DNA of 64,000 nucleotides from Prochlorococcus sp. AG-469-F22 (GCA_003211655.1 QCSC01000001.1:3967-67966); one strand, 5' to 3'. Shown: positions 24,125 to 59,317, numbered from the stretch's first letter. The notes: generated from the letters alone by a model not told the origin. Numbers and translations are program-made.

Positions 24125-24179
24125 GAAAGCCCGATAAATCGGGCGATTTGGTGTGTGAGGAGTATGGGGCTTCCCCCAT
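24125..24179 (-). ncRNA. yfr1: Yfr1 small RNA
   Basis: Minus strand has hairpin GGGG-gaag-CCCC, the conserved ACTCCTCACAC (24153-24163) and terminator GCCCGAT-tt-ATCGGGC; canonical guaB-trxA position. Confidence 0.92.
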
Positions 24180-29420: not shown

Positions 29421-29433
29421 TTAATTAGGCCTA

Positions 29434-29450
29434 TTTATAACTAACAAGCT
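29434..29450 (+). repeat. Left attachment-site candidate
   Basis: TTTATAActaaCAAgCT, 13/17 identical to 45231-45247. Confidence 0.55.
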
Positions 29451-29527
29451 ATTTCCTGAGAATCCAGTATTTGCAATAGGTTTGTAAAGAAGTAATGATA
29501 TTTATATTGTGTTTTTTAATTTAATTT

Positions 29528-29719
29528 ATGTTGCTAAATATCACAAAGAAACAAACAAAATCCGAAGTAGATCCAACCCTACAAGCAAGGGTTAATAAGG
29601 ATTTATTTAATCAGTTTACAAAACTAGCTGAACATTACAAATGTTCTAATGCTGAATTACTAAGAGCCTTAATCAAAGACTGCTTAAAAAGGTTTCAGGA
29701 GCCTAGAAATGAGCAATGA
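29528..29719 (+). CDS. Ribbon-helix-helix/CopG-like DNA-binding protein
   Basis: LQARVNKDL...S.AELLRALI pattern; directly before the primase. Confidence 0.65.
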   Translation: MLLNITKKQTKSEVDPTLQARVNKDLFNQFTKLAEHYKCSNAELLRALIKDCLKRFQEPRNEQ

Positions 29720-32057
29720 AAGAATTTTAAATTGCTCAATTAGGATTCCTCATCTTGAATTAATAGAGTCTGGATTACCAAGTGAAGTCCATCAACGACT
29801 TAATTATCTCCATGTCACTAAAGAAGAAGCTTATAAATTGGTTGGTTATAAGCTTTCAGGATGGGTTGTACTTTTTTGTAATCTAAAAGGGAATCCATAT
29901 CTACATCAAGGCAAACCTTTTTACCGGCTCAAGCCAGAACCTGAACAATTAGAAGGAGATCATCCACCCAAGTATCTATCTCCAAAAGATGCTGGTTTCA
30001 GACCATATTTTTCACGTTTAGCTAAAGAAGAAAAGTACAAGACATGTAAGAAGTTATTTATAACAGAAGGTGAGAAAAAAGCTGATGCCCTAACCCATTA
30101 TGGTTTTCCTTGTATAGCTCTAAGTGGTGTCAGTAGCTGGAAAGATAAAAGGAGTGGAGAATCCAAACCACTTCCAGAATTAGAAGAATTCAATTGGAAA
30201 AACAGGCTAGTATATCTTGTCTTTGATTCAGATATTATTTCAAAAGTAGAAGTACTTCTTGCTTTAAAGAGCTTAAGTGAATTTCTAAAAGGTAAAGAAG
30301 CAAAGGTATTTATTATCCTTTTACCAAATGAGCTAAATGGCGGAAAAAATGGTGCTGATGATTTTTTAAAGCGACATGGTAAACAAGCATTCTCTGAACT
30401 CGTAAGAATTGCAAGGCCAGCTTTTCATTACTACAAAAGAAAGAAAGAGGAGGTATTTACTTGGAAGCCTGAACCTTCAGAGACACACCATATTGCATTA
30501 ATGACAAGTATTATCTTTCAAGATTTCTATGCTGAAAGATCTGGAATAGGTTTATTTCGATGGAAAGAAAAATACTGGGAAAAAGTAAAAGGTAAATCTA
30601 AAGAGGAAATCTTAAAGCCTTTGCATCGATGGTTAGATGTGATGGATTTCCATAAAAGAAGTTGTAGTCACATCTCATCAATTAAAGAAGAATTACTTGC
30701 ACGTTTAAATCAAGAGACATGGGATCCAACTCATTTAATAGCTTTCTCAAATGGCACTTTGGATATACGAACAAACAAGCTTTCGCATGGGCATAACTCA
30801 AAGGATCTCATCTCCTTCTTATTTCCTTTCCCTTTTGATCAATCAGCTCAGTGTCCAACATGGATAAATTTCTTACAAGAAACATTTCCTGAACAAGAAG
30901 TCCAAAACCTTTTAAGAGCTTCTTTTAAATGGACTATTACACCAAAGGATTCTGAACAGCCATTCCCGTATGAGGTCGCATTTGATGTTCACGGTCCTAG
31001 GGGATGCGGAAAAGGAACCATCTCTGAAGTACTTACAGCTTTATGTGGTGGAAGCCACGGTGCAGGAATTGTACGTAGTGAAAGCTTTAACAATTCCAAT
31101 TCTCTAGCAGCGTTAATAGGTAAGAAAATTGCCATTGATCCTGATTCATCTGGTCATATTAAAGATCCAGGGATTTTTAATTCTATTGTTAGCAATGAAC
31201 CAGTTGGAGTCCATTTTTTTTATCAAAATCGATTTGCAGTTCGTTTAGGTGTTGTTATTTGGCGATTCTATAATGATACTCCTGTTGCTCATGGTGGAGG
31301 TTTAGAAGGTATGGGTAGGAGATTGATTACCTTTAGAATTTCAAATAGTCCAAAAATACGTGATCCTTCTTTAAAAAAGAAATTACTACATGAGATAGCT
31401 GGGATATTTCAATGGTGCTGGACGATGGGCGAAGAAGAGATGGAAGAGACGTTTAAGAATAGAGGAAGAATTCCATCAATTCAAGAAGCAACAATTGAAA
31501 ACTTATTGGAATCACGACCAGTTTTGAGATTCTTGGTCGAGAAATATCAAGATGGGATTGAATTTATTTTAGGTAGAAATTTGTACCACGAATATCGAGA
31601 CTGGGCAAAAGATACAGGCCTCCAACCTGTTAAAGAAACCAAGTTCGGACTGGAGGTCAAGAAGGTGGTGGGTTGGGTGGTGAGTAGCAAAACAAAATAT
31701 GGTGTCAACTATCAAATCAAGCCTATGATTGATTTTAATTTGACCGATCACTTTGGATTTGAATGCATAGATGAAGGGTTGAACTCACCACCAGAACTTA
31801 CCCTCCACCCAAACTCACCACCAGTAAATCCATCTAATAGATATGATTCTCAAACAAAGGTGAAGAGTTTGAAGGGTTTACCTCTTTCTTTTAATCAAGA
31901 AAAAAGCAAAAATAAAAACTGTATATATAAAGGGGTGGAGCAAACTCACCATACCCAACACACTCAACACCAAGAGACATTAAATCTAGCTACTTATAAT
32001 ACTGCTGAGTTTGAAGATGATAGTGAGCCACATTGGGGGCCTCGGCCTGTTCCATAA
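29709..32057 (+). CDS. Phage/plasmid primase-helicase (DUF3854 Toprim + D5_N + SF3 ATPase)
   Basis: ITEGEKKA, VFDSD, KNGADD; AFSNGTLD, CPTW; GPRGCGKGT Walker A; C-terminal LY..Y..W wHTH. Confidence 0.9.
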   Translation: MSNERILNCSIRIPHLELIESGLPSEVHQRLNYLHVTKEEAYKLVGYKLSGWVVLFCNLKGNPYLHQGKPFYRLKPEPEQLEGDHPPKYLSPKDAGFRPYFSRLAKEEKYKTCKKLFITEGEKKADALTHYGFPCIALSGVSSWKDKRSGESKPLPELEEFNWKNRLVYLVFDSDIISKVEVLLALKSLSEFLKGKEAKVFIILLPNELNGGKNGADDFLKRHGKQAFSELVRIARPAFHYYKRKKEEVFTWKPEPSETHHIALMTSIIFQDFYAERSGIGLFRWKEKYWEKVKGKSKEEILKPLHRWLDVMDFHKRSCSHISSIKEELLARLNQETWDPTHLIAFSNGTLDIRTNKLSHGHNSKDLISFLFPFPFDQSAQCPTWINFLQETFPEQEVQNLLRASFKWTITPKDSEQPFPYEVAFDVHGPRGCGKGTISEVLTALCGGSHGAGIVRSESFNNSNSLAALIGKKIAIDPDSSGHIKDPGIFNSIVSNEPVGVHFFYQNRFAVRLGVVIWRFYNDTPVAHGGGLEGMGRRLITFRISNSPKIRDPSLKKKLLHEIAGIFQWCWTMGEEEMEETFKNRGRIPSIQEATIENLLESRPVLRFLVEKYQDGIEFILGRNLYHEYRDWAKDTGLQPVKETKFGLEVKKVVGWVVSSKTKYGVNYQIKPMIDFNLTDHFGFECIDEGLNSPPELTLHPNSPPVNPSNRYDSQTKVKSLKGLPLSFNQEKSKNKNCIYKGVEQTHHTQHTQHQETLNLATYNTAEFEDDSEPHWGPRPVP
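31772..31951. repeat. Iteron-like repeats at the primase 3' end (putative ori)
   Basis: AACTCACCACCAG at 31782 and 31812, AACTCACCA at 31943; TGAAG(G/A)GTT at 31772, 31861, 31870. Confidence 0.55.
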
Positions 32058-32060
32058 TAA

Positions 32061-32170
32061 TTTGGGTCCTTTCCAGAGGAAGTAGGTGGGTGATTTCGAG
32101 CCCCAAATTTCCCCTAGGTAAAAGACTGCGTAATTGGACACACTTTTACAATTTCCTCATAGGGAAAATG
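32061..32170 (+). other. GC-rich structured intergenic site with lambda cosQ-like GGGTCCTTTCC
   Basis: GGGTCCTTTCC at 32064-32074; TTTGGG/CCCAAA inverted ends; repeated AATTTCC..TAGG. Confidence 0.4.
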
Positions 32171-32221
32171 GGCTAGAATCGTTGTATAGCAATTAATCTC
32201 ACCTAATGCAAATTTTGTAAG

Positions 32222-32467
32222 ATGAAACCAAAAGCATTTCATATTGAAGCGTTTACAATTACCCAGACAGCTAAAAAGTTAGGCTATAGAAGCACCAAAA
32301 CAATCTACAGACTGGTTAATAGATATGTTTTAGAGGATTATATTTTTTTAGAAAAATCAGGGAGAATTTATCTAATATTAGAACCACCAAATCTTCCAAC
32401 TCTTGCAGAAAAGATCAAAGCAAATATTCAATTTAGAAGAAATAATATTATCAAAAGGAGTTTATAA
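32222..32467 (+). CDS. HTH DNA-binding protein (excisionase/AlpA- or Nu1-like winged HTH)
   Basis: TITQTAKKLGYRSTKTIYRL HTH pattern. Confidence 0.7.
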   Translation: MKPKAFHIEAFTITQTAKKLGYRSTKTIYRLVNRYVLEDYIFLEKSGRIYLILEPPNLPTLAEKIKANIQFRRNNIIKRSL

Positions 32468-32593
32468 TGAAGTTAAATAAGATTAGATAAAATTAAAAGA
32501 ATTAATTAGCTAAAACATTATTTTTTTTATTAGTTTATTGTTTGATTTGATTTTTTTTGACAGTATTTAATTAAGTGTGTAATTTTTTAAACA

Positions 32594-33784
32594 GTGACAA
32601 CTGAATCAAGTCAAAATTCTGAATTTGCAAGAAAACATCCCAGCGAAGGAATGGATGCCTTAGATAAAGAATCAAAATTACCTTTAAAAGGATGGGAAAG
32701 CGAAGTTGCTCGAGCTAAGGAATATGGTTTAGAAGCCGCTAAAAGTATAGTCGATAGAAAAATATCTACATTTTCAAGAGGAGAGTTACCTCATTTTGCT
32801 GGGATTAATACATTTATGAAAGCCCCATATGTTGAAAATGTAAATGAAGTAGGAAATTATGATGTTGCGATAGTTGGGGTACCGCATGATTCTGGAACTA
32901 CATATAGACCAGGAACAAGATTTGGTCCTCAAGGTATAAGAAAAATTTCTGCTCTCTATACTCCCTATAATTACGAAATGGGCGTTGACCTAAGAGAGCA
33001 AATTTCTATATGCGACGTAGGAGATATTTTTACAATCCCAGCAAATAATGAAAAAAGTTTTGATCAAATTTCAAAGGGCATCGCTCATATTTTTGCGAGT
33101 GGTGCGTTCCCAATCATATTAGGAGGAGATCATTCGATAGGATTCCCCACTGTAAGAGGTGTTTGCCGCCATTTAGGGGATAAAAAAGTTGGAATTATTC
33201 ATTTTGATAGACATGTAGATACTCAAGAAACAGATTTGGATGAAAGAATGCATACCTGTCCATGGTTTCATGCAACTAACATGAAAAATGCACCAGCCAA
33301 AAATCTCGTTCAACTAGGAATTGGAGGGTGGCAAGTCCCAAGAGAAGGAGTAAAAATTTGCAGGGAACGAAGTACGAATGTTTTAACAGTTACTGATATT
33401 TGCGATATGGGTTTAAAAGAAGCAGCAGATTTTGCTATTGAAAAAGCCACAGATGGAACTGACTGTGTATATATTTCTTTTGATATTGATTGTATTGATG
33501 CTGGATTTGTACCAGGAACTGGTTGGCCTGAGCCTGGAGGTTTGTTACCTCGAGAAGCACTAAAACTTTTAGAATACATAATTAGAAATGTAAATGTATG
33601 CGGACTTGAGTTGGTAGAGGTTTCGCCTCCATACGATGTAAGCGATATGACAGCTTTACTAGCAACCAGGGTTATTTGTGATTCCATCGCACATCTAGTA
33701 GTAAGTGGTCAGCTTCCAAGGAAATCAAAGCCAGAATGGATTTTTGATAAATGTAATATGGCTGTTGATAAAAAATGGAGATAA
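32594..33784 (+). CDS. gdmH: Ni-dependent guanidine hydrolase (ureohydrolase family)
   Basis: Long N-terminal arm (TFSRGELPHFAGINTF), GGDHS, DRHVD, HTCPW, SFDIDCID, PGTGWPEPGG (Trp where agmatinases have Thr); adjacent HypA/HypB paralogs and ABC system. Confidence 0.88.
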   Translation: MTTESSQNSEFARKHPSEGMDALDKESKLPLKGWESEVARAKEYGLEAAKSIVDRKISTFSRGELPHFAGINTFMKAPYVENVNEVGNYDVAIVGVPHDSGTTYRPGTRFGPQGIRKISALYTPYNYEMGVDLREQISICDVGDIFTIPANNEKSFDQISKGIAHIFASGAFPIILGGDHSIGFPTVRGVCRHLGDKKVGIIHFDRHVDTQETDLDERMHTCPWFHATNMKNAPAKNLVQLGIGGWQVPREGVKICRERSTNVLTVTDICDMGLKEAADFAIEKATDGTDCVYISFDIDCIDAGFVPGTGWPEPGGLLPREALKLLEYIIRNVNVCGLELVEVSPPYDVSDMTALLATRVICDSIAHLVVSGQLPRKSKPEWIFDKCNMAVDKKWR

Positions 33785-33790
33785 ATAATT

Positions 33791-34147
33791 GTGCATGAAG
33801 TAGATATGACCAAATGCTTGATTCTCTCTATGGAAGAATGGGCAGAGAGAAAAAACAAAGAAAAAATAGTTGTTGAAAAAATTAATCTTAAGATTGGGGA
33901 ATTTACTTGTGTAGAGCCAATTTCGTTAATTAATACTTTTAATGCTGCTGTGTTTGGCTCATGGTTAGATTCTTCTGAGATTATTATTGAAACTATTCCT
34001 TTTGAGGGCAGATGCTCTAAATGTAAAAATTCATATTATCCAAAGAAAGATAATGGTTATAAATCTCCTTGTTGTAATTTAAATTTGGAAGAAATTATTA
34101 GAGGTAGAGAGTTGAAAATTTCATCTATTGATTTCAAAGAAAAGTAA
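33791..34147 (+). CDS. ghaA: HypA-family Ni chaperone (GhaA)
   Basis: MHE N-terminus, CSKC...SPCC, GREL. Confidence 0.88.
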   Translation: MHEVDMTKCLILSMEEWAERKNKEKIVVEKINLKIGEFTCVEPISLINTFNAAVFGSWLDSSEIIIETIPFEGRCSKCKNSYYPKKDNGYKSPCCNLNLEEIIRGRELKISSIDFKEK

Positions 34148-34189
34148 GAGTTTACTATCTAGAATAGATAAGTATTTTTATATATATAA

Positions 34190-34870
34190 ATGCATCTACC
34201 GCTTTCAGACAAAATTGAATTAAATATTCTTCATAAAAATAGCCACCAAGCTGAAATAAATAAAAAAAAGTTTAATGAGTGTAAGGTACTATGTCTAAAT
34301 ATAATGAGTAGTCCAGGTTCAGGTAAAACAAAATTACTTGAAAAAACTTTAGAAGATTTATCAAAAAAAATTAAGGTTGCCGTCTTGGAAGGTGATATGA
34401 CAACCACCTTAGATGCTGCGAGGTTAGAGAAATTAAATATTCCAGTTGTCCCAATTACAACTGGAAGAGCATGTCATCTAGATGCAAATATGGTTAAAGG
34501 TGGATTTAAAATTTTAGAATCAAAAATTAATCCTACTTTACTAGACATTTTATTAGTAGAAAATGTGGGTAATTTAGTTTGTCCAGCAGAATTTGAGATA
34601 GGGGAACATTTTAAAGTCGCACTTTTGAGTATTACTGAAGGGGAAGATAAACCTCTGAAGTATCCAGTTATGTTTCGAGAAGCAGATTTAGTTTTGATTA
34701 CTAAAGTAGATTTATTGCCACATCTAAATTTTGATATTGATGAATTAAAATCAAATATTTCTTTAACGAATCCTAAGGCAGAGGTGATAGAAATTTCTTC
34801 AATATCAATGACTGGATTTGATTTATGGAAAAATTGGATAAGTAAAAAGATTCAAGAATTTAAAAAGTAA
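34190..34870 (+). CDS. ghaB: HypB-family Ni chaperone GTPase (GhaB)
   Basis: SSPGSGKT, ACHLDA, ENVGNLVCPA, EGEDKPLKYP. Confidence 0.92.
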   Translation: MHLPLSDKIELNILHKNSHQAEINKKKFNECKVLCLNIMSSPGSGKTKLLEKTLEDLSKKIKVAVLEGDMTTTLDAARLEKLNIPVVPITTGRACHLDANMVKGGFKILESKINPTLLDILLVENVGNLVCPAEFEIGEHFKVALLSITEGEDKPLKYPVMFREADLVLITKVDLLPHLNFDIDELKSNISLTNPKAEVIEISSISMTGFDLWKNWISKKIQEFKK

Positions 34871-34903
34871 GGAAGAAATATAAATATTAGAAATTTTCTA
34901 AAA

Positions 34904-34917
34904 GTATCCATCATTAC
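34904..34917 (+). promoter_or_regulatory. Putative NtcA binding site
   Basis: GTA-TCCATCAT-TAC, 54 nt upstream of the SBP start. Confidence 0.55.
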
Positions 34918-34971
34918 AACTTTATATTTATTTTTTTTTAAGTATTGATATAACGTAATCCTTTTTTTTTA

Positions 34972-35970
34972 ATGTTCAAAAAGTTTAAAGCTTTTGCCTT
35001 TTCTTTGATTGCTTTAGTTCTTGCAATTTCATTGAGTACACTTTCAAGTCCAGCTGCTCCAAAAGGTGATCCTATTACTCTTGGATATAGTAACTGGGCA
35101 GGTTGGTGGCCATGGGCAATAGCTGTTGATCAAAAAATGTTTGAAAAAAATGGAGTTAATGTAGAGATGAAATGGTTCGATGGATATGTACAATCCATGG
35201 AAACTTTTGCTGCTGGTAAAATTGATGGAAATTCTCAAACCCTAAATGACACAATTTCTTTCCTACCTGGAGAGAATGGTGGAGAAGTAGTTGTACTAGT
35301 AAATGATAATTCTGCAGGTAACGATCAAATAATCGCAGATAAATCAATTAAAAGTGTTGCCGATTTAAAAGGAAAAACTGTGGCAGTTGAAGAAGGAGTT
35401 GTAGATGATTTTCTTTTGGTCCTAGCTTTGAATGATGTTGGGCTCACAAGAGATGATGTAATCATTAAGGGACTTCCAACTGATCAGGCTGCTACTGCAT
35501 TCGCAGCAGGTAAAGTAGATGCAGTTGGGGCTTTCCCTCCATTTACGGGCACCGCAATGAAGAGACCTGGAGCAAGAGTTATTGCAAGTTCAAAAGATTA
35601 TCCAGGAGCAATTCCAGATTTATTAGCTGTTAGTGGAGATTTAATCTCGGAAAGACCCGATGATGTTCAAAAAATAGTAAAAACTTGGTGGGATGTAAGA
35701 GCATTCATGGAAAAGAATCCAAGAAAGTCTGCAAAAATCATGGCTAAAAGAGCTGGAATTCCAACAAGAGAATATAAACAATACAAAGGTGGAACAAGGT
35801 TCTTTTCATTAGAAGAAAATTTAGAAGCTTTTAGTGGTGGATTTGGTATGAAACATATGCCTTATGCGGCGAAACAAATGGCAGACTTTATGGTTAAGGT
35901 GGGATTTATCCCTGAAAAACCTGATATGAGTAAATTATTCAATTCTTCTTTTGTAAAAAATATTAGTTAA
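34972..35970 (+). CDS. ABC transporter substrate-binding protein (SsuA/NMT1-like; probable guanidine binder)
   Basis: Signal peptide; GYSNWAGWWPW, QTLNDT, DNSAGND; gdmH context. Confidence 0.85.
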   Translation: MFKKFKAFAFSLIALVLAISLSTLSSPAAPKGDPITLGYSNWAGWWPWAIAVDQKMFEKNGVNVEMKWFDGYVQSMETFAAGKIDGNSQTLNDTISFLPGENGGEVVVLVNDNSAGNDQIIADKSIKSVADLKGKTVAVEEGVVDDFLLVLALNDVGLTRDDVIIKGLPTDQAATAFAAGKVDAVGAFPPFTGTAMKRPGARVIASSKDYPGAIPDLLAVSGDLISERPDDVQKIVKTWWDVRAFMEKNPRKSAKIMAKRAGIPTREYKQYKGGTRFFSLEENLEAFSGGFGMKHMPYAAKQMADFMVKVGFIPEKPDMSKLFNSSFVKNIS

Positions 35971-35984
35971 TAAAAAGAATTAGA

Positions 35985-36806
35985 ATGATTAGTTCAAAAT
36001 TAATCAAGAGGGATAAATCTTTTTTTTTATCCCTCTTTTCATTTGGTACTGAACCAAAAAAATTAAATAAAACATTCCTTCAAGTTGCATCACTTTTGCT
36101 GCCTCTTTTACTTTGGTCAGTAATTTGTCAACTAAAACTGGTAAGTGAATTGTTTTTGCCATCTCCCTTAGCAGTTTTTTATTCACTTTTAGATATGGCT
36201 GAAAGTGGGATCTTATTCGAAGATATATTTGCAAGTACTGGTAGGGTTTTTGCAGGTTTTATAATCGCTACAATTTTATCTGTTCCTTTAGGTATTGCGA
36301 TGGGGTCCTTCCCCTCTTTTTGTGCATTATGCGAACCTTTGATTGCAATGCTTAGATATATGCCTGCGGCTGCTTTTACTCCTTTACTGATTATTTATTT
36401 AGGAATTGAAGAAGCTCCAAAAATTGCGTTAATTTTTATTGGAACAGTTTATTTTAATGTTTTGATGGTTATGGATTCAGTAAAATTTGTTCCTAGGGAG
36501 CTTATAGAAACAACTCTTACTTTAGGTGGTAATACAAAAGATTTATTATTCAAAGTAATAGCAAGATATTCTTTACCAAGTATTATTGATACTCTAAGAA
36601 TCAATATTGCAACTTCATGGAACCTAGTAATCGTAGCAGAATTAATTGCGGCAGAAGTTGGTTTAGGAAAAAGGATTCAATTAGCTCAGAGGTTTTTTCG
36701 TACAGAACAAATATTTGCAGAATTAATAGTTCTCGGGATAATTGGATTCACTCTAGATATGAGCTTTAGATTTCTTTTAAGACGTACATGCAAATGGGCT
36801 GTTTAA
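35985..36806 (+). CDS. ABC transporter permease (SsuC/TauC-like)
   Basis: FLPSP, RYMPAAAF.PL, VAELIAA..GLG. Confidence 0.9.
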   Translation: MISSKLIKRDKSFFLSLFSFGTEPKKLNKTFLQVASLLLPLLLWSVICQLKLVSELFLPSPLAVFYSLLDMAESGILFEDIFASTGRVFAGFIIATILSVPLGIAMGSFPSFCALCEPLIAMLRYMPAAAFTPLLIIYLGIEEAPKIALIFIGTVYFNVLMVMDSVKFVPRELIETTLTLGGNTKDLLFKVIARYSLPSIIDTLRINIATSWNLVIVAELIAAEVGLGKRIQLAQRFFRTEQIFAELIVLGIIGFTLDMSFRFLLRRTCKWAV

Positions 36807-37568: not shown

Positions 37569-38593
37569 TGTCTAATAAGAGTTTTTTGCCTACATGGCTT
37601 TATAACGATAAACAAATATTTAATTTTGAATTAGAGAAATATTCAAAAAACTTTTGGCATCCATTGATTTTTGTTGGAGAAATTAAAGCTGGAGAAATAT
37701 TAGAAAAAAAATTCTTAAAGCAATCATTATTTATTTCATGTTCACAAAATAATTCAATAAATGTTTTTAAAAATAGATGCCCGCATCGTGGCTCAGAACT
37801 ACTTTTGCTAAAAACAAAAGATAATCCCTCTAAAAGTATTTTCTGTCCCTATCATGGCTGGACTTTTGATGGCTTTGGTGAACTTAAAACACTGCCATTA
37901 AAGGACGATTTTGAGATCAAAGTAGAATTAGGTGATTATTTCTTAGAAAAAGTAAATTCTTTAGTAAATGGACCTTTTATTTGGATTAATTTCAGCAATC
38001 AACCAATATCTATAGATGATCAAATTGACCTTGTTGTCGGAAATTGTAACGATGAATGGAATATAAATTATGGTATATTTTCTGAATTTTCTAATACATT
38101 AAATTGTAATTGGAAAATAGCTCATGATAATACACTAGATGACTATCATGTCGCGGTCGCTCATAAGAATACATTACATAAAGAACAAGGTCCAATTAAA
38201 AACTATAAGTATTTTTTTAGTAAATTTTGTAATGTTCTTGTTACTCCAATGAATAGTAGAGAAAATTTATATACTTTTGGATTATTACCATGGACGCATA
38301 TTATAGTTTGGCCTGGTAGAGGTATTTTGTTAATAAGTTATCCTCCTCAAAGAATTGATCAATGTAGTTTGGAAATAAAATTAGCTTCGGCAACTCTATG
38401 TACAAAAGATTTAGAAGATTGGAAAATTAATATCTTAAATTTTCTTAGGGAAGATAAAGTTATTGTCGAATCAGTTCAAAAGTCTTATAGGGGGAAATTT
38501 AAACTTGGACCCCCTAATAGACTTGAACAGAGAATTATTCACTGGCAAGAAGTTTATAAGGAGTTTTTGCAGGCATATGGAATTTCTTTTTAA
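37568..38593 (+). CDS. Rieske non-heme iron oxygenase, alpha subunit
   Basis: CPHRG...CPYHGW Rieske ligands; NWK..DN.LDDYHV..AH and distal ED for mononuclear Fe; TAATG coupling to the ATPase. Confidence 0.88.
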   Translation: MSNKSFLPTWLYNDKQIFNFELEKYSKNFWHPLIFVGEIKAGEILEKKFLKQSLFISCSQNNSINVFKNRCPHRGSELLLLKTKDNPSKSIFCPYHGWTFDGFGELKTLPLKDDFEIKVELGDYFLEKVNSLVNGPFIWINFSNQPISIDDQIDLVVGNCNDEWNINYGIFSEFSNTLNCNWKIAHDNTLDDYHVAVAHKNTLHKEQGPIKNYKYFFSKFCNVLVTPMNSRENLYTFGLLPWTHIIVWPGRGILLISYPPQRIDQCSLEIKLASATLCTKDLEDWKINILNFLREDKVIVESVQKSYRGKFKLGPPNRLEQRIIHWQEVYKEFLQAYGISF

Positions 38594-38663
38594 AAAAGAA
38601 AATATTGCAAAGATACATATTGAAAATATAGGTAACCCAAAGATAATTGCTTCTACAAAAATT

Positions 38664-38697
38664 AGCTAATTGCCCCTTATTGTTGATCGACTGTCAA
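38664..38697 (+). repeat. Cargo-boundary repeat, copy A
   Basis: AGCTAATTGCCCCTTATTGTTGATCGACTGTCAA; 31/34 identical to copy C. Confidence 0.85.
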
Positions 38698-38751
38698 ATT
38701 AATCTGTTTAAAAATATCTACTGTTAATATGAATTAAATTTTTAAATTAAG

Positions 38752-39009
38752 TTGGTTTACTTTAAGAGAGAGTTTATTAAATCCCTTAAAATAAAAGGCT
38801 CTATATTTTTAATTGTGATAATTATTGGATTTATTTACTCAAGTCCAAAATCAAGGGTAATTATTGCAAATTCTTTTACTTCTTCAGCCAAATTTTTAAA
38901 TGAAACTGTCGAAACAAAAAATAAAGATAGTTGGTTTTCTGAACCAGATTTCGTTTTCAGTATTAGGTTAAGATTACGAGAATTTTTAAGAGGAACTCAA
39001 AGAGGTTGA
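38752..39009 (+). CDS. Small hypothetical membrane protein between repeats A and B
   Basis: One TM helix followed by YSSPKSR...A..L. Confidence 0.55.
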   Translation: MVYFKREFIKSLKIKGSIFLIVIIIGFIYSSPKSRVIIANSFTSSAKFLNETVETKNKDSWFSEPDFVFSIRLRLREFLRGTQRG

Positions 39010-39017
39010 AAAAGAAA

Positions 39018-39057
39018 TAATTGCCCTTTATTGTAGATGACTATCAATTACTAACTA
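39018..39057 (+). repeat. Cargo-boundary repeat, copy B
   Basis: TAATTGCCCTTTATTGTAGATGACTATCAATTACTAACTA; degenerate copy of A/C. Confidence 0.8.
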
Positions 39058-39180
39058 TTTGCGGTGCAAGTAGTAAGCGTTTCATTTAATTCCACCCATA
39101 ACAATATTCGAATCTATCTTTTTTGCATTGCAAAAATGCTTCATAGCGATTATCTGCTATACCTTGCCATACTTTGCTAA
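39044..39180 (-). pseudogene. Relic of two coupled small genes (3' end ...CKKDRFEYCYGWN* then MKRLLLAPQIVSN*)
   Basis: TAA-ATG junction like the one at 41760-41765; the leader runs into repeat B; the upstream part has no start. Confidence 0.5.
39061..39089 (+). repeat. 29-bp direct repeat, copy 1 (encodes MKRLLLAP on the minus strand)
   Basis: GCGGTGCAAGTAGTAAGCGTTTCATTTAA, identical to 41738-41766. Confidence 0.9.
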
Positions 39181-39310
39181 CTTAAAACGCTTAAAAAATT
39201 TAATCAATATCTCCAAAAAAAGATTTAGAGGGGATCGAAAACTTTAAAACGCTAACTTGAATTTTTATTTTTAGGTATTTTTACTAACATAAACTATAAA
39301 TTAGATGTAA

Positions 39311-40534
39311 ATGTCAATTAGGATTTTAAAAAGTTTTTTATTTCTAGCTTTATCCTCTCCTTTTATAGGGCAGGCAGAAACAAAGCAAGAAATCAAATAT
39401 CAATCCAATAGTTTTAATTCTTCAAATAGCGTTATTGCAAAGCAGGAATATGAAGTAGAAAAACCTTCATACATTATTGATAGAAATAAATGTAATGTTT
39501 TTGAAAACAAAAGATCTTCTACTTGTGTTGGACCAGAAAAGGCTTATCAACCTAAAGATGAATTAGATGAATACATAATTAAAGGAGCAACTTATTCGAC
39601 TAAGTTTGTTCCTTTAATGAATGATGGCGCAGAAGGTAGTGAATATACTAATTTAATGGCTAATGATGGTAAAAGATTATTGGTAGATGCTGGATTTGAT
39701 TTTGTAAATAGTACTGCTAATAGTGGAATTCAAAGTATTCCATTTTTTGCTCAAACATCTGTTCATATTTCTGGCGGCACAGAATCAGATACTAGTTTCT
39801 CAGTTAATAGCTTAATGAAGTTAGGAGAGCTAGCGGTTGATGATGAGGGTGATATAAAAACTCTCGCATTTTCTCAGGCAAGATTTGCTACTGCCACTAA
39901 TGCAGATGGTTCTACTACTAACTTAGGGTTAGGAATAAGACATCGTCCTGATGATGTATCAATGATTGGTGCTAACGCTTTCTGGGATTACAGAATGACA
40001 GACTATAGTGATGCTCATAGCAGACTTGGACTTGGAGGAGAATATCTTTGGAAAGATTTTGAATTTAGAAACAACTGGTATATGGCAATAACTGATGAAA
40101 AAGAAATCTTAATAAAAAATGTCAAATATACAGAAAAAGTTGTAGACGGATGGGATGCAGAAATTGGTTATAGGCTTCCAAGTTATCCAGAACTTGCTTT
40201 CTTCGTTAGAGGGTTCAACTGGGACTATAAATATACTCAAGATAATTCTGGATTAGAAGGATCTCTTAGTTGGCAAGCTACACCTCATGTTGGACTAGAA
40301 GCTTTTATTTCTAATGAAATTTCTACGGCCTCTACAAAAGTAAACACTGATTTGCCTGGAACTAATGAGACTTTCTTTGGATTAAGGATGAATTTAACAG
40401 GAAATCCAGTTAAATTTGCCAAAAATGATTACAAGAATAATATGATCACTCAAATGACTCAACCGGTAAAACGTAAATATGATGTTTTACTTGAAAGGAA
40501 AACTGGTTGGTCCGTTAATTTCGGTGGAAATTAA
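39311..40534 (+). CDS. Inverse autotransporter (intimin/invasin) beta-barrel domain protein without passenger
   Basis: NLGLGIR, GANAFWDY, HSRLGLGGEY, GWDAEIGYRLPSYPEL, V.RKYDVLLE; ends ~11 aa later. Confidence 0.85.
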   Translation: MSIRILKSFLFLALSSPFIGQAETKQEIKYQSNSFNSSNSVIAKQEYEVEKPSYIIDRNKCNVFENKRSSTCVGPEKAYQPKDELDEYIIKGATYSTKFVPLMNDGAEGSEYTNLMANDGKRLLVDAGFDFVNSTANSGIQSIPFFAQTSVHISGGTESDTSFSVNSLMKLGELAVDDEGDIKTLAFSQARFATATNADGSTTNLGLGIRHRPDDVSMIGANAFWDYRMTDYSDAHSRLGLGGEYLWKDFEFRNNWYMAITDEKEILIKNVKYTEKVVDGWDAEIGYRLPSYPELAFFVRGFNWDYKYTQDNSGLEGSLSWQATPHVGLEAFISNEISTASTKVNTDLPGTNETFFGLRMNLTGNPVKFAKNDYKNNMITQMTQPVKRKYDVLLERKTGWSVNFGGN

Positions 40535-40565
40535 TCTAAGTATTCTTTAAAGCACTCCAATAAAA

Positions 40566-41561
40566 ATGAAATTATTTACCAACGAATTTTTGAACTTACC
40601 AACTTTGAAAAGAAGCAAATTCTTGTTTTTTATAGCAGCATCTTTTTCTTCAATAATTGTCAGTTCAGAACCAACATACTCAAATGAAATAGCAAAATGT
40701 AGGGATTTAACTTTGCCATCATTAATTTCAGATGGTGGTCGAGTTAATGGAGGAAGGGGGTGTACTATGTCTCCAACTAGTTATAAGGTAAAAGCATTTG
40801 AATTAGGTCTTTGTACAGAAGCTAATAACCCATTTAGTACAACGGGCTTAGACACCTCTGGGTGTTTTGCTGTATGGAGTGATCCCAATGGTTATGAGGC
40901 GAATCTGGTTTCAGCAAATGGATCTGCTGCTGTTGAAACCTTAGATTCATCTAATGCAATAAGACCACCAGCAGGTACGTATAAACATGCTTATGTTATT
41001 ATCGATGACACAATTAAGATAAGAGCTACTTTAGAATTAGCTGGTGAGACTTGGAAAACATCAAATAAAGATGCTCATAAAGAGTATTTCCCTACTGATA
41101 GAGATGAGGGTCAAATAGCCTCTTTAGGTAAAGTATCTACAGAGGATGCAGACGAAGCCGAAACAAGATTAGGTTTTTTTAATGTTACTGGCAATGATGC
41201 CGACGATAAATGTTATTTACAAGACTATGTTGTTGACAGTGACATAACCTTAAATGCACTTATGTTGAAATCTGATAAGAAAACTATCGCTACTAAAGCT
41301 ACTTCTACAAGTAATTTTAATTATGATAATACGCTTTGTTCTGGTTCAAAATATATAGCAGGAGTAGAAACTTTTACAACTCCAATTGTTGTTACTGAGA
41401 ATACAACTTCAGCGTCTTTAACTTTTGATACAACAGATGTAGGTGTTTGGGTAGAAGGTTATGATGGTTATAGCAGCATCACCTCAGATAGAGGACCAGG
41501 AGGATCTGACAGGCCCTATTTTGATATGGGGGCTTTTATTATAAGGATATCTGTTAATTAA
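40566..41561 (+). CDS. Secreted beta-rich Cys-containing hypothetical protein
   Basis: Signal-like N-terminus, six Cys, Thr/Ser/Asp-rich; 31 bp after the barrel gene. Confidence 0.75.
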   Translation: MKLFTNEFLNLPTLKRSKFLFFIAASFSSIIVSSEPTYSNEIAKCRDLTLPSLISDGGRVNGGRGCTMSPTSYKVKAFELGLCTEANNPFSTTGLDTSGCFAVWSDPNGYEANLVSANGSAAVETLDSSNAIRPPAGTYKHAYVIIDDTIKIRATLELAGETWKTSNKDAHKEYFPTDRDEGQIASLGKVSTEDADEAETRLGFFNVTGNDADDKCYLQDYVVDSDITLNALMLKSDKKTIATKATSTSNFNYDNTLCSGSKYIAGVETFTTPIVVTENTTSASLTFDTTDVGVWVEGYDGYSSITSDRGPGGSDRPYFDMGAFIIRISVN

Positions 41562-41618
41562 TTTATATTTAAATGGTATTCCAAAAGTATTTTTAATAAT
41601 CGATTTAAAAACTATAAT

Positions 41619-41762
41619 TCATTCCTCTTGATAAGACCCTTTTGGAAAATTAGAAGCTCTCCAAGAGTCAAATGAGCATTCTAAATTAATAATGCCATTA
41701 TCTTTACTACTACAACCAAAAAGCAAAGTTAATAAAAGCGGTGCAAGTAGTAAGCGTTTCAT
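41619..41762 (-). CDS. Small lipoprotein-like ORF (47 aa), possibly truncated; not in ORF track
   Basis: MKRLLLAPLLLTLLFGCSSKD... lipobox-like LFGC; TAA-ATG coupled to the upstream gene. Confidence 0.6.
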   Translation of the reverse strand: MKRLLLAPLLLTLLFGCSSKDNGIINLECSFDSWRASNFPKGSYQEE

Positions 41763-41766
41763 TTAA
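41738..41766 (+). repeat. 29-bp direct repeat, copy 2
   Basis: Identical to 39061-39089. Confidence 0.9.
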
Positions 41767-42074
41767 AAATAAAATCTCTTTGCAACTTTTCTATCAAATC
41801 TTTCTTTTTCGTAAATTTTATTTTCTTCAATATTTTGATATTCCCAACCTAAGAATTGCCTTGTTTCTTTATCGTATTTACAAAATCTAGCTTTCTTAGA
41901 ATAAGTACCCCAAGGACTTTTGACCTTATAACTAATTCCCCCAATTATCCACTTATTGCAAGCCATTTCTGCTTCAGTAAAAGAACCATATCTTCCAAAC
42001 CAATTTGACCAATTTGCATTAACGGCAGTAGGTAGAGCGAGGGCTGCTAGTAGTGGGAGTAATAAGCGTTTCAT
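41763..42074 (-). CDS. Small secreted hypothetical protein
   Basis: MKRLLLPLLAALALPTAVNA signal peptide; two Cys. Confidence 0.75.
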   Translation of the reverse strand: MKRLLLPLLAALALPTAVNANWSNWFGRYGSFTEAEMACNKWIIGGISYKVKSPWGTYSKKARFCKYDKETRQFLGWEYQNIEENKIYEKERFDRKVAKRFYF

Positions 42075-42475
42075 TTCTTTTTAAGTTGCTTTTTTGTATT
42101 CGTAACAAGTCCAACTAATATGAGAATCTTAATTAGGATTCTATATCTAGCTGCAAATGCGGCTATTGGCTCTAAAAAGTCTTTTACTTCTTGTGGAAGT
42201 TGAGGGTAAACATCTTGTATATACCAAGGCAAAACAATTATTATAAACACCCCAAGAGCAGTCATTAGGACTACAGTTTTTAAAATTTCTTTTGCCTTCT
42301 CTTTCTTTGGTTTGTGATAGTCCTTGTAAAGTTCAATAAATTCATCCCATACAGAATCTGGCACTTGAGATACAGATACAAGACCTTCTAATTTAACGGC
42401 TAAATCCCAATCATATTTGTATGAAGCTTCTAATAGATTCTGGAACTCCGAATCAGGCATTTCCCTTAAGTTCAT
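42071..42475 (-). CDS. Hypothetical membrane protein
   Basis: Soluble N-terminus plus two hydrophobic segments; ATGA overlap with the next gene. Confidence 0.65.
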   Translation of the reverse strand: MNLREMPDSEFQNLLEASYKYDWDLAVKLEGLVSVSQVPDSVWDEFIELYKDYHKPKKEKAKEILKTVVLMTALGVFIIIVLPWYIQDVYPQLPQEVKDFLEPIAAFAARYRILIKILILVGLVTNTKKQLKKK

Positions 42476-42488
42476 ACTCTAATCCAAT

Positions 42489-42517
42489 AAAAAAAAGGAG
42501 CTAATTGCTCCTTATTT
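42489..42517 (-). terminator. Intrinsic terminator after the ligase gene (overlaps repeat C)
   Basis: Minus strand AAGGAGC-aatta-GCTCCTT followed by a T-run. Confidence 0.7.
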
Positions 42518-42542
42518 TAGATCGACTGTCAATTATTAACTA
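42499..42542 (+). repeat. Cargo-boundary repeat, copy C (abuts the ligase stop codon)
   Basis: AGCTAATTGCTCCTTATTTTAGATCGACTGTCAATTATTAACTA. Confidence 0.85.
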
Positions 42543-43295
42543 ATACTTAATCGCCATCTGCCAATGAGGGTAAGTTTCATAGGATTTTTCTCTAATTAAT
42601 TGTAATTTTCTAGAATTTAATTTAACTACTATTCCATCAGTAGGATAATTATTAAATAACTTTTTATCAGTCCATTGTTTACGGTACATTTCCACCTGAC
42701 TTGTAAAGTTAAGGCTTTTATATTCTGGAATTGTAAAACCTAATTTTTTTAAATATTGAAGGGAATCATGTTGGTTAAGTCGTCCGTTAATTATCTGAAA
42801 AGAACAAAAGCTAAGATGATCACTTTTACTATCAGCAGCCCGAAGATAACCTCCTGCCTGTCTTTGGCTAAAGCTGGGTCTGTCATACTCTGCTGGTGCA
42901 TATAATTCGCCTCTAATCTGGATTAAACCTTTAATATTTATCTTAGATGGTACATCTGGAATATCTTTTATTTTATTAGTAACATCTCCTCCTTTCCTTG
43001 CTATTGCCTTAACTAAATCTCCATCTATATATTGAATAGCAATGGCACATCCATCAATCTTAGGTTCAATTATTAATCTAGTATCGGACAATAATCCATC
43101 TAAAAAATCATCAATAGAATCTTTAGGCAAACTTGGCAATGGCAATATAGTTTTTTTAGAAAAGTAATTTGCTTCTGGATTAACTCTAAATAAATTGGCT
43201 TCAAGTTTATCGAACTGTTCATCAGTAATTAAAGGAGTTCCCATCCTGTAATTATGGTCGTACCATTCAATCCGTTCTTCAAGATATGTAGTCAT
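42540..43295 (-). CDS. NAD-dependent DNA ligase, adenylation domain only
   Basis: Y...P.ITDEQFD, EPKIDG, IRGE, TDGIVVK, MAIKY*; no OB/HhH/BRCT domains. Confidence 0.88.
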   Translation of the reverse strand: MTTYLEERIEWYDHNYRMGTPLITDEQFDKLEANLFRVNPEANYFSKKTILPLPSLPKDSIDDFLDGLLSDTRLIIEPKIDGCAIAIQYIDGDLVKAIARKGGDVTNKIKDIPDVPSKINIKGLIQIRGELYAPAEYDRPSFSQRQAGGYLRAADSKSDHLSFCSFQIINGRLNQHDSLQYLKKLGFTIPEYKSLNFTSQVEMYRKQWTDKKLFNNYPTDGIVVKLNSRKLQLIREKSYETYPHWQMAIKY

Positions 43296-43307
43296 AATTA
43301 AGCAGCT

Positions 43308-45160
43308 TTAATTTTTTCCAATAATTACAGTAGTTTTACCGTCTAATATTGGTCTATTTTTTTCTGCAATTTGCTCTTTCATTACTTCTTTAACATCTAT
43401 TCCTAATACATAAGCATCTTCCGCTCTTTGATCTAAACCAATATATTTATTAGTTTTAGTGTCATACATTCCAATACCAATATCAAATTTTATAGGGCTT
43501 TCATACTTTCTAGCTTTACTTACCTTTTCTGGAATTAAAACCTCAACAGCAAAACCAATCTCTTTTAAAAATAAATTAAATTCTGATCTTTTTTCTTTTA
43601 TAAATCTATCTTTATCTAAAAATAATTTAACTTTATCTTGAATATCTTTTGCAGCTTGTTTACCTGATTTTTTTCTTTGTAGATTCTGTAAATCTAATAT
43701 TGCTCGCTGATATTTTGTTTCCGCCTGTTTATATTCTTCTGTAGCTTCAAGTTGTTGTTTTTCTAAATTTATTGGAACTGCTCTGCCTTTAGCAAAATAT
43801 TCCGATTCTGCTTTTTTAAAATTTTCTAATTTAGCTTTTAATTGATTTTTTTCATCTAAAGCTTTTAATCTTTTATTTTTTTGTATTTCAACTTCTTCCT
43901 CGTGTTTTTCATCAGTCAAATAATCTTCCCATCTAAATAACATTATTCGATTTAAGATTTCTGATTCATTATCAATATTGTTATGAATTTGCTTGTAAGG
44001 AACAGTATTAGTAGCTTTGCAATTTAAATCTCCGTCAGCTTTAGCATTGTGACATTGTAAAAAAGACATTTCTACTTCTACTTTTTCTCCACCTTTAGCC
44101 CATTTTTTGGTGCCAACAATTCTTCTTCTTGTAATAACATCCATGCGACCACCACAATGACCGCAGCGTATTACTCCTTGAAATAAATTAACTGTTTTAT
44201 CTGTAGGAGATGTAAAAGTTCTATTTAATCTTCTGTTTTCTTTTGCTCCTTGAACTCTTTTAAATTGTTCTGGAGTAATATTGGAGGGAATGGATAGCAA
44301 ACAACTCCTCTCTTAGTTTTTTCTCCTGTAACTGCTCTATTTTTAAGAATGCACGTCGAAATTGCATCTTTACTCAAATATTTATTTTTTCCATTTAAAG
44401 GACTTTTTACACCTTCCTTCTTTAAGATTTTCGCAGTTTTTCCTATACCTATTGTTTCGGCCATATTAAATATTCTTTGTATTAATTTCTTCTCTTCTTC
44501 AAAAGCTTTTGCTTTACCTGTCTTTTCATCTATATAAATCCAAAAGGGATATAAATTACCTTTAGTTCATTTTTTTCTAGGTTTAAAAGAGCTAAAGTCT
44601 CCCTCTGAAAACTGTTTAGCTATTTTTTCTTCAGAACCATTTTTTCTATTTGCTTTTTCTTCCCACTCACTAGAAGCACCTAAGCTTGCACCTAAAAATT
44701 GAAACCATTGAGCATCATCTGTGCCGTTAAATGGTTTTCCTCCTAATTGAACAAATGCCAATTCCAAGCCACTATCAAGAATTGTATTAAGGAGTTTTGT
44801 TGATCCTCTAGCTCTAGATCTAGTTAATCGACTCCAATTTTCTACAACTAAACACGTTCCTCTTGGAATTTCTCCTTTTTCAGCAGCTTTAATTAATGAA
44901 GATAATGCTCCAATTTCACTATTTTTGCCCCTACCACTTACTCCTAAATCTCGAAATTCAAATCCATCTAAATTTTCATAGTCTGGATGACTTTCTAGCC
45001 AATTAAGATAATCTTGCTCCTGTCGCTCTATTCCTGATTTGTTTTCTGTTGTTTGAGCTTTAGTGCTAACTCGGATATATGAGACAGAAAATTTAGTGGC
45101 AACTGGAGTTACTTCACTATTTGTTATAGAAGTTTTTGTAGTTGTTTCTGCCATTGCCAT
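43308..45160 (-). pseudogene. Large serine recombinase (integrase) interrupted by an in-frame TGA (44567-44569) and a 1-nt frameshift (~44280)
   Basis: YIRVST..Q, DLGVSG, VENWSRLTR catalytic domain; YPFWI and LKNRAVTG recombinase domain; CGHCGG...C...C Zn ribbon; coiled coil. Confidence 0.88.
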
Positions 45161-45230
45161 GAATTGACTTAAAGGCAGTATGGCACAGGTTTTATGTTAT
45201 GACAAAAGGGGTAAAATATATCATGAGATT

Positions 45231-45247
45231 TTTATAATTGCCAATCT
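45231..45247 (+). repeat. Right attachment-site candidate overlapping the GH57 stop codon
   Basis: TTTATAAttgcCAAtCT; similar to 29434-29450. Confidence 0.55.
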
Positions 45248-59290: not shown

Positions 59291-59317
59291 ATAATTAAAA
59301 TTTTGAAAATTAATTTA

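What the first reader, a model, noticed from the sequence alone, without database searches (positions are those of the whole stretch)
29434..45237. Tycheposon-like element carrying a complete guanidine-utilisation system in a high-light Prochlorococcus
Seen: replication genes (RHH, primase-helicase, HTH) and integration genes (ligase, large serine recombinase) flank a nitrogen-acquisition cargo and interrupt core synteny. Known: tycheposons of marine picocyanobacteria combine these hallmark genes with nutrient cargo such as nitrate, phosphorus and iron modules. Inference: this element spreads guanidine use as a nitrogen niche trait. I do not recall guanidine hydrolase as described tycheposon cargo, but could not search.
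Basis: partly seen in the sequence, partly recalled or inferred. Interest (0 to 1): 0.88.

Follow-up and report, generated by a model that had tools for sequence, protein, structure and literature searches.

The report
Serine-integrase tycheposon captured guanidine genes
A 15.8-kb mobile DNA element sits at the end of a carotenoid gene in a marine Prochlorococcus and carries seven genes predicted to let the cell use guanidine as a nitrogen source; the same genes lie inside a collapsed relative of the element at a second site in another genome, so such elements likely move nutrient genes and leave them behind, although most carriers keep these genes at one ordinary island site.

Summary
The element is real: window 29419-45222, between 2-bp AT cores at the crtL/GH57 junction. 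That site is empty in 26 of 29 closest relatives and occupied, in both orientations, in others. The layout (inward-facing large serine recombinase, replication module at the far end, cargo) fits the tycheposon definition, which allows serine recombinases; no tRNA is involved. The cargo is the published guanidinase cluster ProCAG_004; GdmH and GimA keep every diagnostic residue. This scan met the cluster before on other DNA, but not this element.

New here: a 98-99% identical cassette lies between collapsed element ends at a second site (after dxr) in G191, and a metagenome contig shows a cassette-deletion scar. Element ends occur at four non-tRNA sites in 24 of 285 genomes; seven at dxr enclose another nitrogen-related cluster.

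The element likely captured an island cassette and is a minor route, probably immobile here. Guanidine use and recombination are untested.

The parts
28209..29420 (+). crtL lycopene beta-cyclase (host core gene); its stop codon is completed by the element's first two bases
   Evidence: NF045687 above cut-off; junction sequences
29417..29418 (.). attL crossover core, dinucleotide AT
   Evidence: Empty-site comparison; metagenome joint 29416->45223 with 2 letters fitting both sides
29419..45222 (.). Whole element, 15,804 bp between the cores, GC 0.327 against 0.312 for the genome
29528..29719 (+). Small ribbon-helix-helix-like protein, likely regulator
   Evidence: No hit itself; 77% homolog in G152 hits PF01402 at cut-off
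29709..32057 (+). Primase-helicase of P4/D5 type (replication module)
   Evidence: homologs in 8 of 285 genomes
32222..32467 (+). HTH protein, candidate excisionase / directionality factor (inferred)
   Evidence: Sub-threshold HTH_17/23/28/29 hits; related DNA in 50 of 285 genomes
32455..32463 (+). 9-bp sequence AAGGAGTTT, repeated at 38558-38566; metagenome locus L142 is joined across the two copies
32594..33784 (+). gdmH, predicted Ni-dependent guanidine hydrolase; T103, H220, W311, E342 match the four published diagnostic positions
   Evidence: 7ESR/7OI1 E 8e-227, 317 of 383 identical by hand count; 9FEK E 6e-170; positions mapped
33791..34147 (+). ghaA (HypA-like Ni chaperone)
   Evidence: PF01155
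34190..34870 (+). ghaB (HypB-like GTPase)
   Evidence: TIGR00073 above cut-off
34904..34917 (+). Perfect NtcA-type box GTA-N8-TAC upstream of gimA
   Evidence: present in 54 of 54 other loci examined; consensus
34972..35970 (+). gimA, predicted guanidine-binding protein; W42, W45, D118, F188, D216 match Synechocystis W59, W62, D135, F205, D233 at a constant offset of 17
35985..37568 (+). gimB permease (35985-36806) and gimC ATPase (36807-37568)
37568..38593 (+). Rieske non-heme iron oxygenase, start overlapping the gimC stop; metal ligands intact; closest solved fold CntA, then stachydrine demethylase; substrate unknown
38657..42533 (.). Second cargo block: ORFs 38752-39009 (+), inverse-autotransporter beta-barrel 39311-40534 (+), 40566-41561 (+), 41763-42074 (-), 42071-42475 (-), with copies of a 30-80-bp repeat at about 38657, 39009, 41738 and 42492
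   Evidence: repeat has 13 hits in this genome
42540..43295 (-). NAD-dependent DNA ligase, adenylation domain only (251 aa, KxDG motif present), directly behind the recombinase
   Evidence: PF01653; same position in G190, G128, G021, G187, G053
43308..45160 (-). Large serine recombinase reading inward; broken by TGA at 44567-44569 and a one-base loss near 44280
   Evidence: intact 664-aa homolog in G190 (90% DNA identity) with Resolvase + Recombinase + Zn ribbon
45120..45222 (.). Conserved right end of the element family (integrase 5' region and att arm)
   Evidence: 25 matches in 24 of 285 genomes at four host sites
45223..45224 (.). attR crossover core, dinucleotide AT
45232..46815 (-). GH57 branching enzyme (host core gene, intact)

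Best explanation
This is a 15.8-kb tycheposon of the serine-recombinase type, inserted at a 2-bp AT core in the crtL stop codon, that likely captured the island-resident seven-gene cassette predicted to import and hydrolyse guanidine, and whose copy here is probably no longer self-mobile. Steps: (1) Shown by comparison: the family inserts at the ends of protein-coding core genes (crtL/GH57, dxr/ferredoxin, a glyoxalase locus, one more) and leaves the host gene end readable. (2) Inferred from serine-integrase chemistry: the recombinase joins attP and attB around the symmetric AT core, which explains both orientations; the HTH would direct excision and the primase-helicase would copy the excised circle. 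(3) Inferred: one capture event put gdmH-ghaAB-gimABC-Rieske behind the HTH gene, from a donor of the host's own clade. (4) Shown: the same cassette allele with the same left junction lies between element ends at the dxr site in G191, without integrase or primase. (5) Predicted: GimABC imports guanidine under NtcA control, Ni-GdmH loaded by GhaAB splits it to urea and ammonium, host urease finishes; the Rieske enzyme may demethylate methylguanidines first (speculative). Elements then decay and the cargo stays or is deleted.
For: Att mapping: empty site in 26 of 29 relatives and 3 of 4 metagenomes; same AT core in G069 (forward) and G190, G078, G152 (inverted); right end at crtL/GH57 in 9 genomes, 2 forward and 7 inverted. 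Family: sister elements with the same recombinase-ligase module carry TPR-CHAT cargo (G069), a capsid-protease gene (G021, G187) or a VirE helicase (G053). Cargo identity; urease alpha in this genome. Capture from own clade: gdmH+ghaA DNA 99% to G191, 93% to the island copy of G054, 87-88% to 23 other genomes; G000+G191+G054 form one clade with support 1.0 in an unrooted 26-sequence tree. Second site: G191 contig C23 reads dxr, HTH fragment, gdmH (98.7%); contig C26 reads gimB-gimC-Rieske (98%), about 430 bp, element right end, then the host DNA that follows dxr; its crtL site is empty. Deletion scar in L142 shares both junctions. Decay: two lesions in the recombinase, while 38 of 41 flanking genes align to G034 without gaps.
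Against: No recombination, excised circle or growth on guanidine was shown. G191's cassette is on two contigs with a 1.6-kb gap, so its continuity is inferred from both outer ends mapping to dxr. The two lesions could be single-cell assembly errors: contigs from all 4 metagenomes, including ones differing at only 3-4 other letters, have the extra base at 44279, and the source reads were not available. No relatives were found in IMG/VR, so the transfer vehicle is unknown. The attP arms show little inverted symmetry (15 of 30). The tycheposon hallmark HMMs were not available.
Confidence: 0.75

Rival explanations
1. The element is the main vehicle that spreads guanidine use through high-light Prochlorococcus.
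For: Two chromosomal sites in two genomes; 2 of 3 carriers among the 30 genomes of the window's clade are element-bound; patchy presence, 61 of 285 genomes and 20 of 92 high-quality ones. The island copy could itself be a very old collapsed element.
Against: 59 of 60 other gdmH loci have no hit to my element-gene set, including 45 of 45 with at least 3 kb upstream and 9 kb downstream; 51 of 52 have the same 107-aa gene after the Rieske gene. No recombinase or primase domain among 76 neighbour-cluster representatives. Cassette divergence follows host divergence. In run X2 a 98%-identical cassette contig leaves the element upstream of gdmH.
Confidence: 0.08
2. The element in this cell is intact and active; the stop and frameshift are amplification or assembly errors.
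For: The genome is a 59%-complete, 80-contig assembly; all metagenome contigs over 44279 keep the frame; G190 and G069 are open at both places; all other element genes are full length.
Against: Two independent single-base lesions in 1.85 kb, while 38 of 41 flanking genes are gap-free against G034; broken or deleted recombinases are common in the family (G152, G006, G162, G191).
Confidence: 0.15
3. The block is an assembly chimera that joins an island cassette, element fragments and core DNA.
For: Likely single-cell assembly; no metagenome contig spans the whole stretch.
Against: Both outer junctions recur in G069; the HTH-gdmH junction recurs in G191; both cassette junctions recur in L142; borders fall exactly on the 2-bp core used by other insertions.
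Confidence: 0.02
4. The element is real but the cargo works on another guanidino compound (agmatine or a substituted guanidine), not on free guanidine.
For: Profile libraries call it agmatinase (TIGR01230 just above cut-off); no guanidine riboswitch was found in the window or 8 loci; the Rieske oxygenase is not part of the characterised Synechocystis locus.
Against: 83% identity to solved GdmH; 4 of 4 diagnostic GdmH residues and 5 of 5 GimA pocket residues present; same gene order as sll1077-sll1082.
Confidence: 0.05

Closest known systems
Cargo-carrying tycheposons of Prochlorococcus (Hackl et al., bioRxiv 10.1101/2020.12.28.424599; I read section 4 and passages; the Cell version was not held)
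   Same: Site-specific integrase facing inward at one end, small replication module at the other, ligase/primase/regulator genes, nutrient cargo, 10-20 kb; sister elements of the same integrase group carry a capsid gene, as in the paper's PICI-like type.
   Different: Large serine recombinase (27 of 937 elements in the paper) instead of the usual tyrosine recombinase; target is the end of a protein-coding core gene outside tRNA islands; only a 2-bp core is shared by the two borders; both orientations occur; guanidine cargo is not named in the main text. This element may be listed in the paper's supplementary table, which I could not see.
ProCAG_004 / SynCAG_001 guanidinase cluster (Dore et al., bioRxiv 10.1101/2022.08.17.504260 = PMC10119275; passages read)
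   Same: speB2/gdmH, hypA, hypB, three ABC genes, Rieske gene; linked there to N-poor, Fe-replete waters.
   Different: That text has no occurrence of 'tycheposon' or 'mobile'; here the cluster is inside an integrative element. The riboswitch reported for Synechococcus was not found here.
Synechocystis PCC 6803 gdmH-ghaA-ghaB / gimABC, sll1077-sll1082 (PDB 7OI1, 7ESR; PMC12704784 passages and section 6; PMC11410670 passages; Funck et al. 2022 not read)
   Same: Gene order, GdmH 83% identical, diagnostic residues, GimA pocket residues, NtcA box before gimA.
   Different: No guanidine-I riboswitch and no perfect NtcA box before gdmH; extra Rieske gene; mobile context; no experiment in Prochlorococcus seen.
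CntA carnitine monooxygenase (PDB 6Y9C, 6ZGP) and stachydrine demethylase (4QUR, 3VCA)
   Same: Best fold matches of the Rieske protein (TM 0.76-0.82); Rieske and mononuclear iron ligands conserved.
   Different: 16-23% identity; no reductase gene in the cassette; substrate unknown.

Membership tests
Tycheposon | Site-specific integrase (mostly lineage-specific tyrosine recombinase; a minority large serine recombinase) | tested here: met
   Large serine recombinase domains, site specificity shown by repeated use of one core; minority type; broken in this copy
Tycheposon | Shared hallmark genes matching the published profile set | not testable with these tools
   Profiles are in supplementary data not available; gene classes (primase, ligase, regulator, xis-like HTH) match the legend read, and the primase has 42-47% homologs beside tyrosine recombinases in G202 and G110
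Tycheposon | [quoted passage not shown] | tested here: met
Tycheposon | Cargo for local adaptation or phage interference | tested here: met
   Nitrogen cassette
Tycheposon (usual trait, not in the paper's definition) | Integration at one of seven tRNA/tmRNA genes | tested here: not met
   Only tRNA in the window is tRNA-Glu at 59317, 14 kb away; borders are at the crtL stop
Tycheposon | Excision, replication and transfer in capsids or vesicles | tested here: inconclusive
   No excised-circle joint among the rows shown (tables were cut); no hits in viral contigs
PICI / PICI-like tycheposon | Capsid or small terminase gene | tested here: not met
   None among the element's ORFs; present in sister elements G021 and G187
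GdmH guanidine hydrolase | Thr, His, Trp (and Glu) at N. inopinata 105, 222, 313, 344 | tested here: met
   T103, H220, W311, E342; mapping uses a constant 2-residue offset in the PDB chains, which fits all four
GdmH guanidine hydrolase | Adjacent HypA/HypB-like chaperones GhaA/GhaB | tested here: met
GdmH guanidine hydrolase | Ni-dependent hydrolysis of guanidine | not testable with these tools
   Needs enzyme assay
GimA guanidine-binding protein | Pocket residues W59, W62, D135, F205, D233 | tested here: met
   W42, W45, D118, F188, D216 at one offset; conserved in 114-120 of 120 homologs; Sll1080 itself was not aligned
Synechocystis-type guanidine locus | Guanidine-I riboswitch upstream of gdmH | tested here: not met
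   No Rfam match in the window at gathering score or in 8 gdmH loci at E up to 1

The most novel reading that the evidence does not exclude
A serine-recombinase branch of tycheposons is a second island-building system in Prochlorococcus. It inserts at the ends of core protein genes instead of tRNAs, rebuilds the host gene end, swaps integrase modules to change site, and then sheds its own machinery so that nitrogen cassettes stay fixed as micro-islands: the guanidine cassette in G191 and the pyrB2-asnB cluster behind the same element end at dxr in at least 8 genomes. The window is a full-length snapshot of that capture-move-collapse route, and its Rieske gene would widen the cargo to methylated guanidines.
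Probability: 0.5. Interest if true: 0.72.

Novelty: new variant of a known kind. Interest (0 to 1): 0.5.

Why it matters
It ties two separately published things, tycheposons and the Prochlorococcus guanidinase cluster, into one physical element and shows how a nitrogen trait can be picked up from an island, moved, and fixed elsewhere. It gives exact attachment sites and an intact integrase (G190), so recombination can be tested directly in a group with few genetic tools. It also corrects scale: the element is a minor carrier of guanidine genes, so ocean maps of gdmH mostly track one island locus. Parts and element class are known, which limits surprise.

Tried and rejected
Long terminal repeats or a partial tRNA at the borders: none; only the 2-bp core is shared. 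Exact HTH-gdmH junction pattern: 0 in metagenome contigs, 0 in viral contigs. Recombinase, HTH and gdmH in IMG/VR: no confirmed relative. gdmH in 50,697 phage records: 3 distant agmatinase-like hits at 31-32% only. Riboswitch search: none. Promoter scan before gdmH: no site above shuffle level, although a TTGACA hexamer is conserved there in the 20 loci printed. Inverted symmetry of the att arms: weak (15 of 30 and 13 of 30). Metagenome depths (cassette about 40-85, backbone about 1-37, flanking core mostly 90-350 in X1, X2, X6) fit a minority element but are not cell shares, so they are not used as evidence. Naming the island repeat as the recalled 'PRE1': no paper found, name not used. ESM Atlas look-up of the 331-aa ORF: tool unreachable twice. 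P0214, a Rieske-ligase fusion from a 1.9-kb contig, looks like an assembly chimera and was not used. Cell version of the tycheposon paper not held.
Full report
Setting. The window is contig C1 of a 1.11-Mb, 80-contig, 59%-complete genome. Homologs are named Prochlorococcus. High-light status is inferred from 31% GC and relatives of about 1.7 Mb. The host belongs to a minority group of about 30 genomes at 84-97% identity at the crtL 3' end, against about 80% for most of the 285; that this is clade HLI is my inference, not tested.

Observation. Complete genome G034 is colinear with the window at 94-96% except for one insertion. Of the 29 closest other genomes, 26 have crtL joined to GH57 and 3 have an insertion at the same point. 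Three of four metagenomes hold the joint 29416->45223. The element is 29419-45222; both borders share only the dinucleotide AT, at 29417-18 and 45223-24. The crossover lies in the crtL stop codon, which stays a stop in either orientation. The only tRNA in the window is 14 kb away.

Element family. G069 has the element in the same orientation with TPR-CHAT cargo; G190, G078 and G152 have it inverted at the same core; G216 has a forward remnant. Insertion in both orientations at a symmetric core is what serine-integrase chemistry predicts (established knowledge, recalled). Recombinase homologs occur in 9 of 285 genomes and primase homologs in 8 of 285. The conserved right end gives 25 matches in 24 of 285 genomes, at four host sites: crtL/GH57 9 (2 forward, 7 inverted), dxr/ferredoxin 11, a glyoxalase locus 3, one other site 2. 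At dxr the end supplies a new start for the ferredoxin gene; 6 of 10 sampled control genomes have dxr directly followed by ferredoxin, and 4 have other DNA there. Sister elements in G021 and G187 carry a capsid-protease gene and G053 a VirE helicase, which mirrors the PICI-like and cargo types of tycheposons.

State of this copy. The recombinase has a TGA at 44567-69 and lacks one base near 44280; G190 (664 aa, 90% DNA identity) and G069 are open at both places. Contigs of all 4 metagenomes laid have the extra base, so the frameshift is private to this genome; the stop position was not among the rows shown. Of 41 flanking genes, 38 align to G034 without gaps, one has an in-frame 3-bp gap, one is divergent and one has a single-base gap that I did not examine. 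Real decay is therefore more likely than error, but source reads were not available. No second family recombinase was found in the assembled 59%.

Cargo. The hydrolase matches Synechocystis GdmH (7ESR/7OI1, E 8e-227; 317 of 383 identical by hand count) far better than any agmatinase and has all four diagnostic residues given in PMC11410670 (passages). The binding protein has all five pocket residues given for GimA in PMC12704784 (section 6) at one offset, conserved in 114-120 of 120 homologs. A perfect NtcA-type box precedes gimA here and in 54 of 54 other loci; the window holds 10 such boxes in all. No riboswitch was found. Urease alpha is in the genome. The Rieske protein has intact ligands, a confident model (pLDDT 89) and CntA, then stachydrine demethylase, as best folds. 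Methylguanidine demethylation is known from a different enzyme class (PMC12508155; listing and passages); a similar role for the Rieske protein is speculation. The cluster is already described in Prochlorococcus as ProCAG_004 (passages).

Where the cassette normally lives. gdmH is in 61 of 285 genomes, 20 of 92 high-quality. I fetched the surroundings of all 60 others. 53 show all seven genes; the rest end at contig edges. 59 have no hit to my set of element genes, including all 45 with at least 3 kb upstream and 9 kb downstream; 51 of 52 with enough sequence have the same 107-aa gene after the Rieske gene. Pfam on 76 of 83 ORF-cluster representatives (7 cassette clusters left out, ORFs under 90 aa not examined) found no recombinase or primase. 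gdmH+ghaA DNA is 99% identical to G191, 93% to the island copy in G054 and 87-88% to 23 other genomes (25 of the 60 used); G000, G191 and G054 group with support 1.0 in an unrooted tree. So the cassette follows host clade, and the element likely took it from its own clade's island.

Evidence that the cassette moved with the element. In G191 the crtL site is empty. Its contig C23 reads dxr, HTH fragment, gdmH, ghaA at 98.7% to the window. Contig C26 reads gimB, gimC, Rieske at 98%, about 430 bp, the element right end, then the host DNA that follows dxr. The right end there resembles the dxr-type ends more than the window's, which suggests an integrase-module swap (inference). A 1.6-kb assembly gap separates the halves. 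Only G191 of 50 genomes with HTH-related DNA continues into the gdmH leader. Among 46 metagenomic HTH loci (32 with at least 500 bp downstream) none has a cassette gene, but L142 joins the HTH end to the last codons of the Rieske gene and the element-specific DNA behind it, across the 9-bp repeat that flanks the cassette; I read this as a deletion scar of the same capture. Many HTH loci are island remnants, so 0 of 46 is a rough census.

A wider pattern. Seven of the ten other dxr-site ends enclose a four-gene block (carbamoyltransferase, asparagine synthase, M20 peptidase, DUF1028), and G003 makes an eighth. By domain content this is likely ProCAG_007 (asnB, pyrB2, pydC). Those ends are 72-77% identical over up to 96 bp, and G162 keeps a recombinase fragment inside one. 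These genomes are kin, so this may be one old event.

Comparison and novelty. The element meets the testable points of the tycheposon definition; 27 of 937 elements in that study had large serine recombinases. Its main text has no 'guanidin' or 'agmatin' and describes tRNA targets. Searches for tycheposon with guanidine, with agmatinase/speB/guanidin/urea (top 40 listed), with serine recombinase, tycheposon alone (25 listings seen), Prochlorococcus with guanidine terms and Prochlorococcus with large serine recombinase and attB showed no description of this combination. The Cell version and all bioRxiv supplements were not visible, and this element may be in their tables. Earlier notes of this scan cover the cassette on other genomes but not this recombinase.

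Verdict. Observation confirmed with corrected borders and a broken integrase; interpretation partly supported. New variant of a known kind; interest 0.5.

Noticed in passing
L270-L272, L274-L277 (G144, G200, G203, G265, G033, G218, G175) and L299 (G003), between dxr and the ferredoxin gene: A carbamoyltransferase / asparagine synthase / M20 peptidase / DUF1028 block, likely ProCAG_007, sits inside the same element right end, with no element genes left.
   Followed up: partly
L096:4093-12360 (G021) and L097:3662-11923 (G187): PICI-like sister elements: serine recombinase, ligase domain, second glyoxalase copy, HTH, capsid-protease fusion, AAA helicase; in G021 the recombinase ends at 618 aa.
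   Followed up: partly
window 38657-38697, 39009-39089, 41738-41766, 42492-42533: A 30-80-bp repeat separates cargo ORFs; 13 hits in this genome and copies in many related elements, suggesting cassette-like exchange of small genes.
   Followed up: partly
window 42540-43295: Ligase gene is the adenylation domain only; two 52-53% homologs lie on contigs C32 and C16 of the same genome. Role unexplained.
   Followed up: no
window 39311-41561: Inverse-autotransporter beta-barrel without a long passenger, followed by a 331-aa ORF with no Pfam, NCBIfam or PHROG hit; possibly a two-gene surface module.
   Followed up: partly
G000 contig C24 and C17: Tyrosine-recombinase fragments, and on C24 VirE-like helicase and primase homologs: probable conventional tycheposons or remnants elsewhere in this genome.
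   Followed up: no
L061:2105-5509 (G069): Cargo of the closest sister element is a 1134-aa TPR-CHAT protein, a possible defence gene.
   Followed up: no
window 32530-32593 and L001-L020: The gdmH leader in Prochlorococcus has no riboswitch or perfect NtcA box but keeps a TTGACA hexamer, hinting at riboswitch-free expression.
   Followed up: partly
window 24126-24179 (-): Yfr1 small RNA between trxA and guaB; ordinary.
   Followed up: no
L105:1679-14071 (G128): A 4130-aa ORF with type I secretion-like genes next to a compound serine/tyrosine recombinase element.
   Followed up: no
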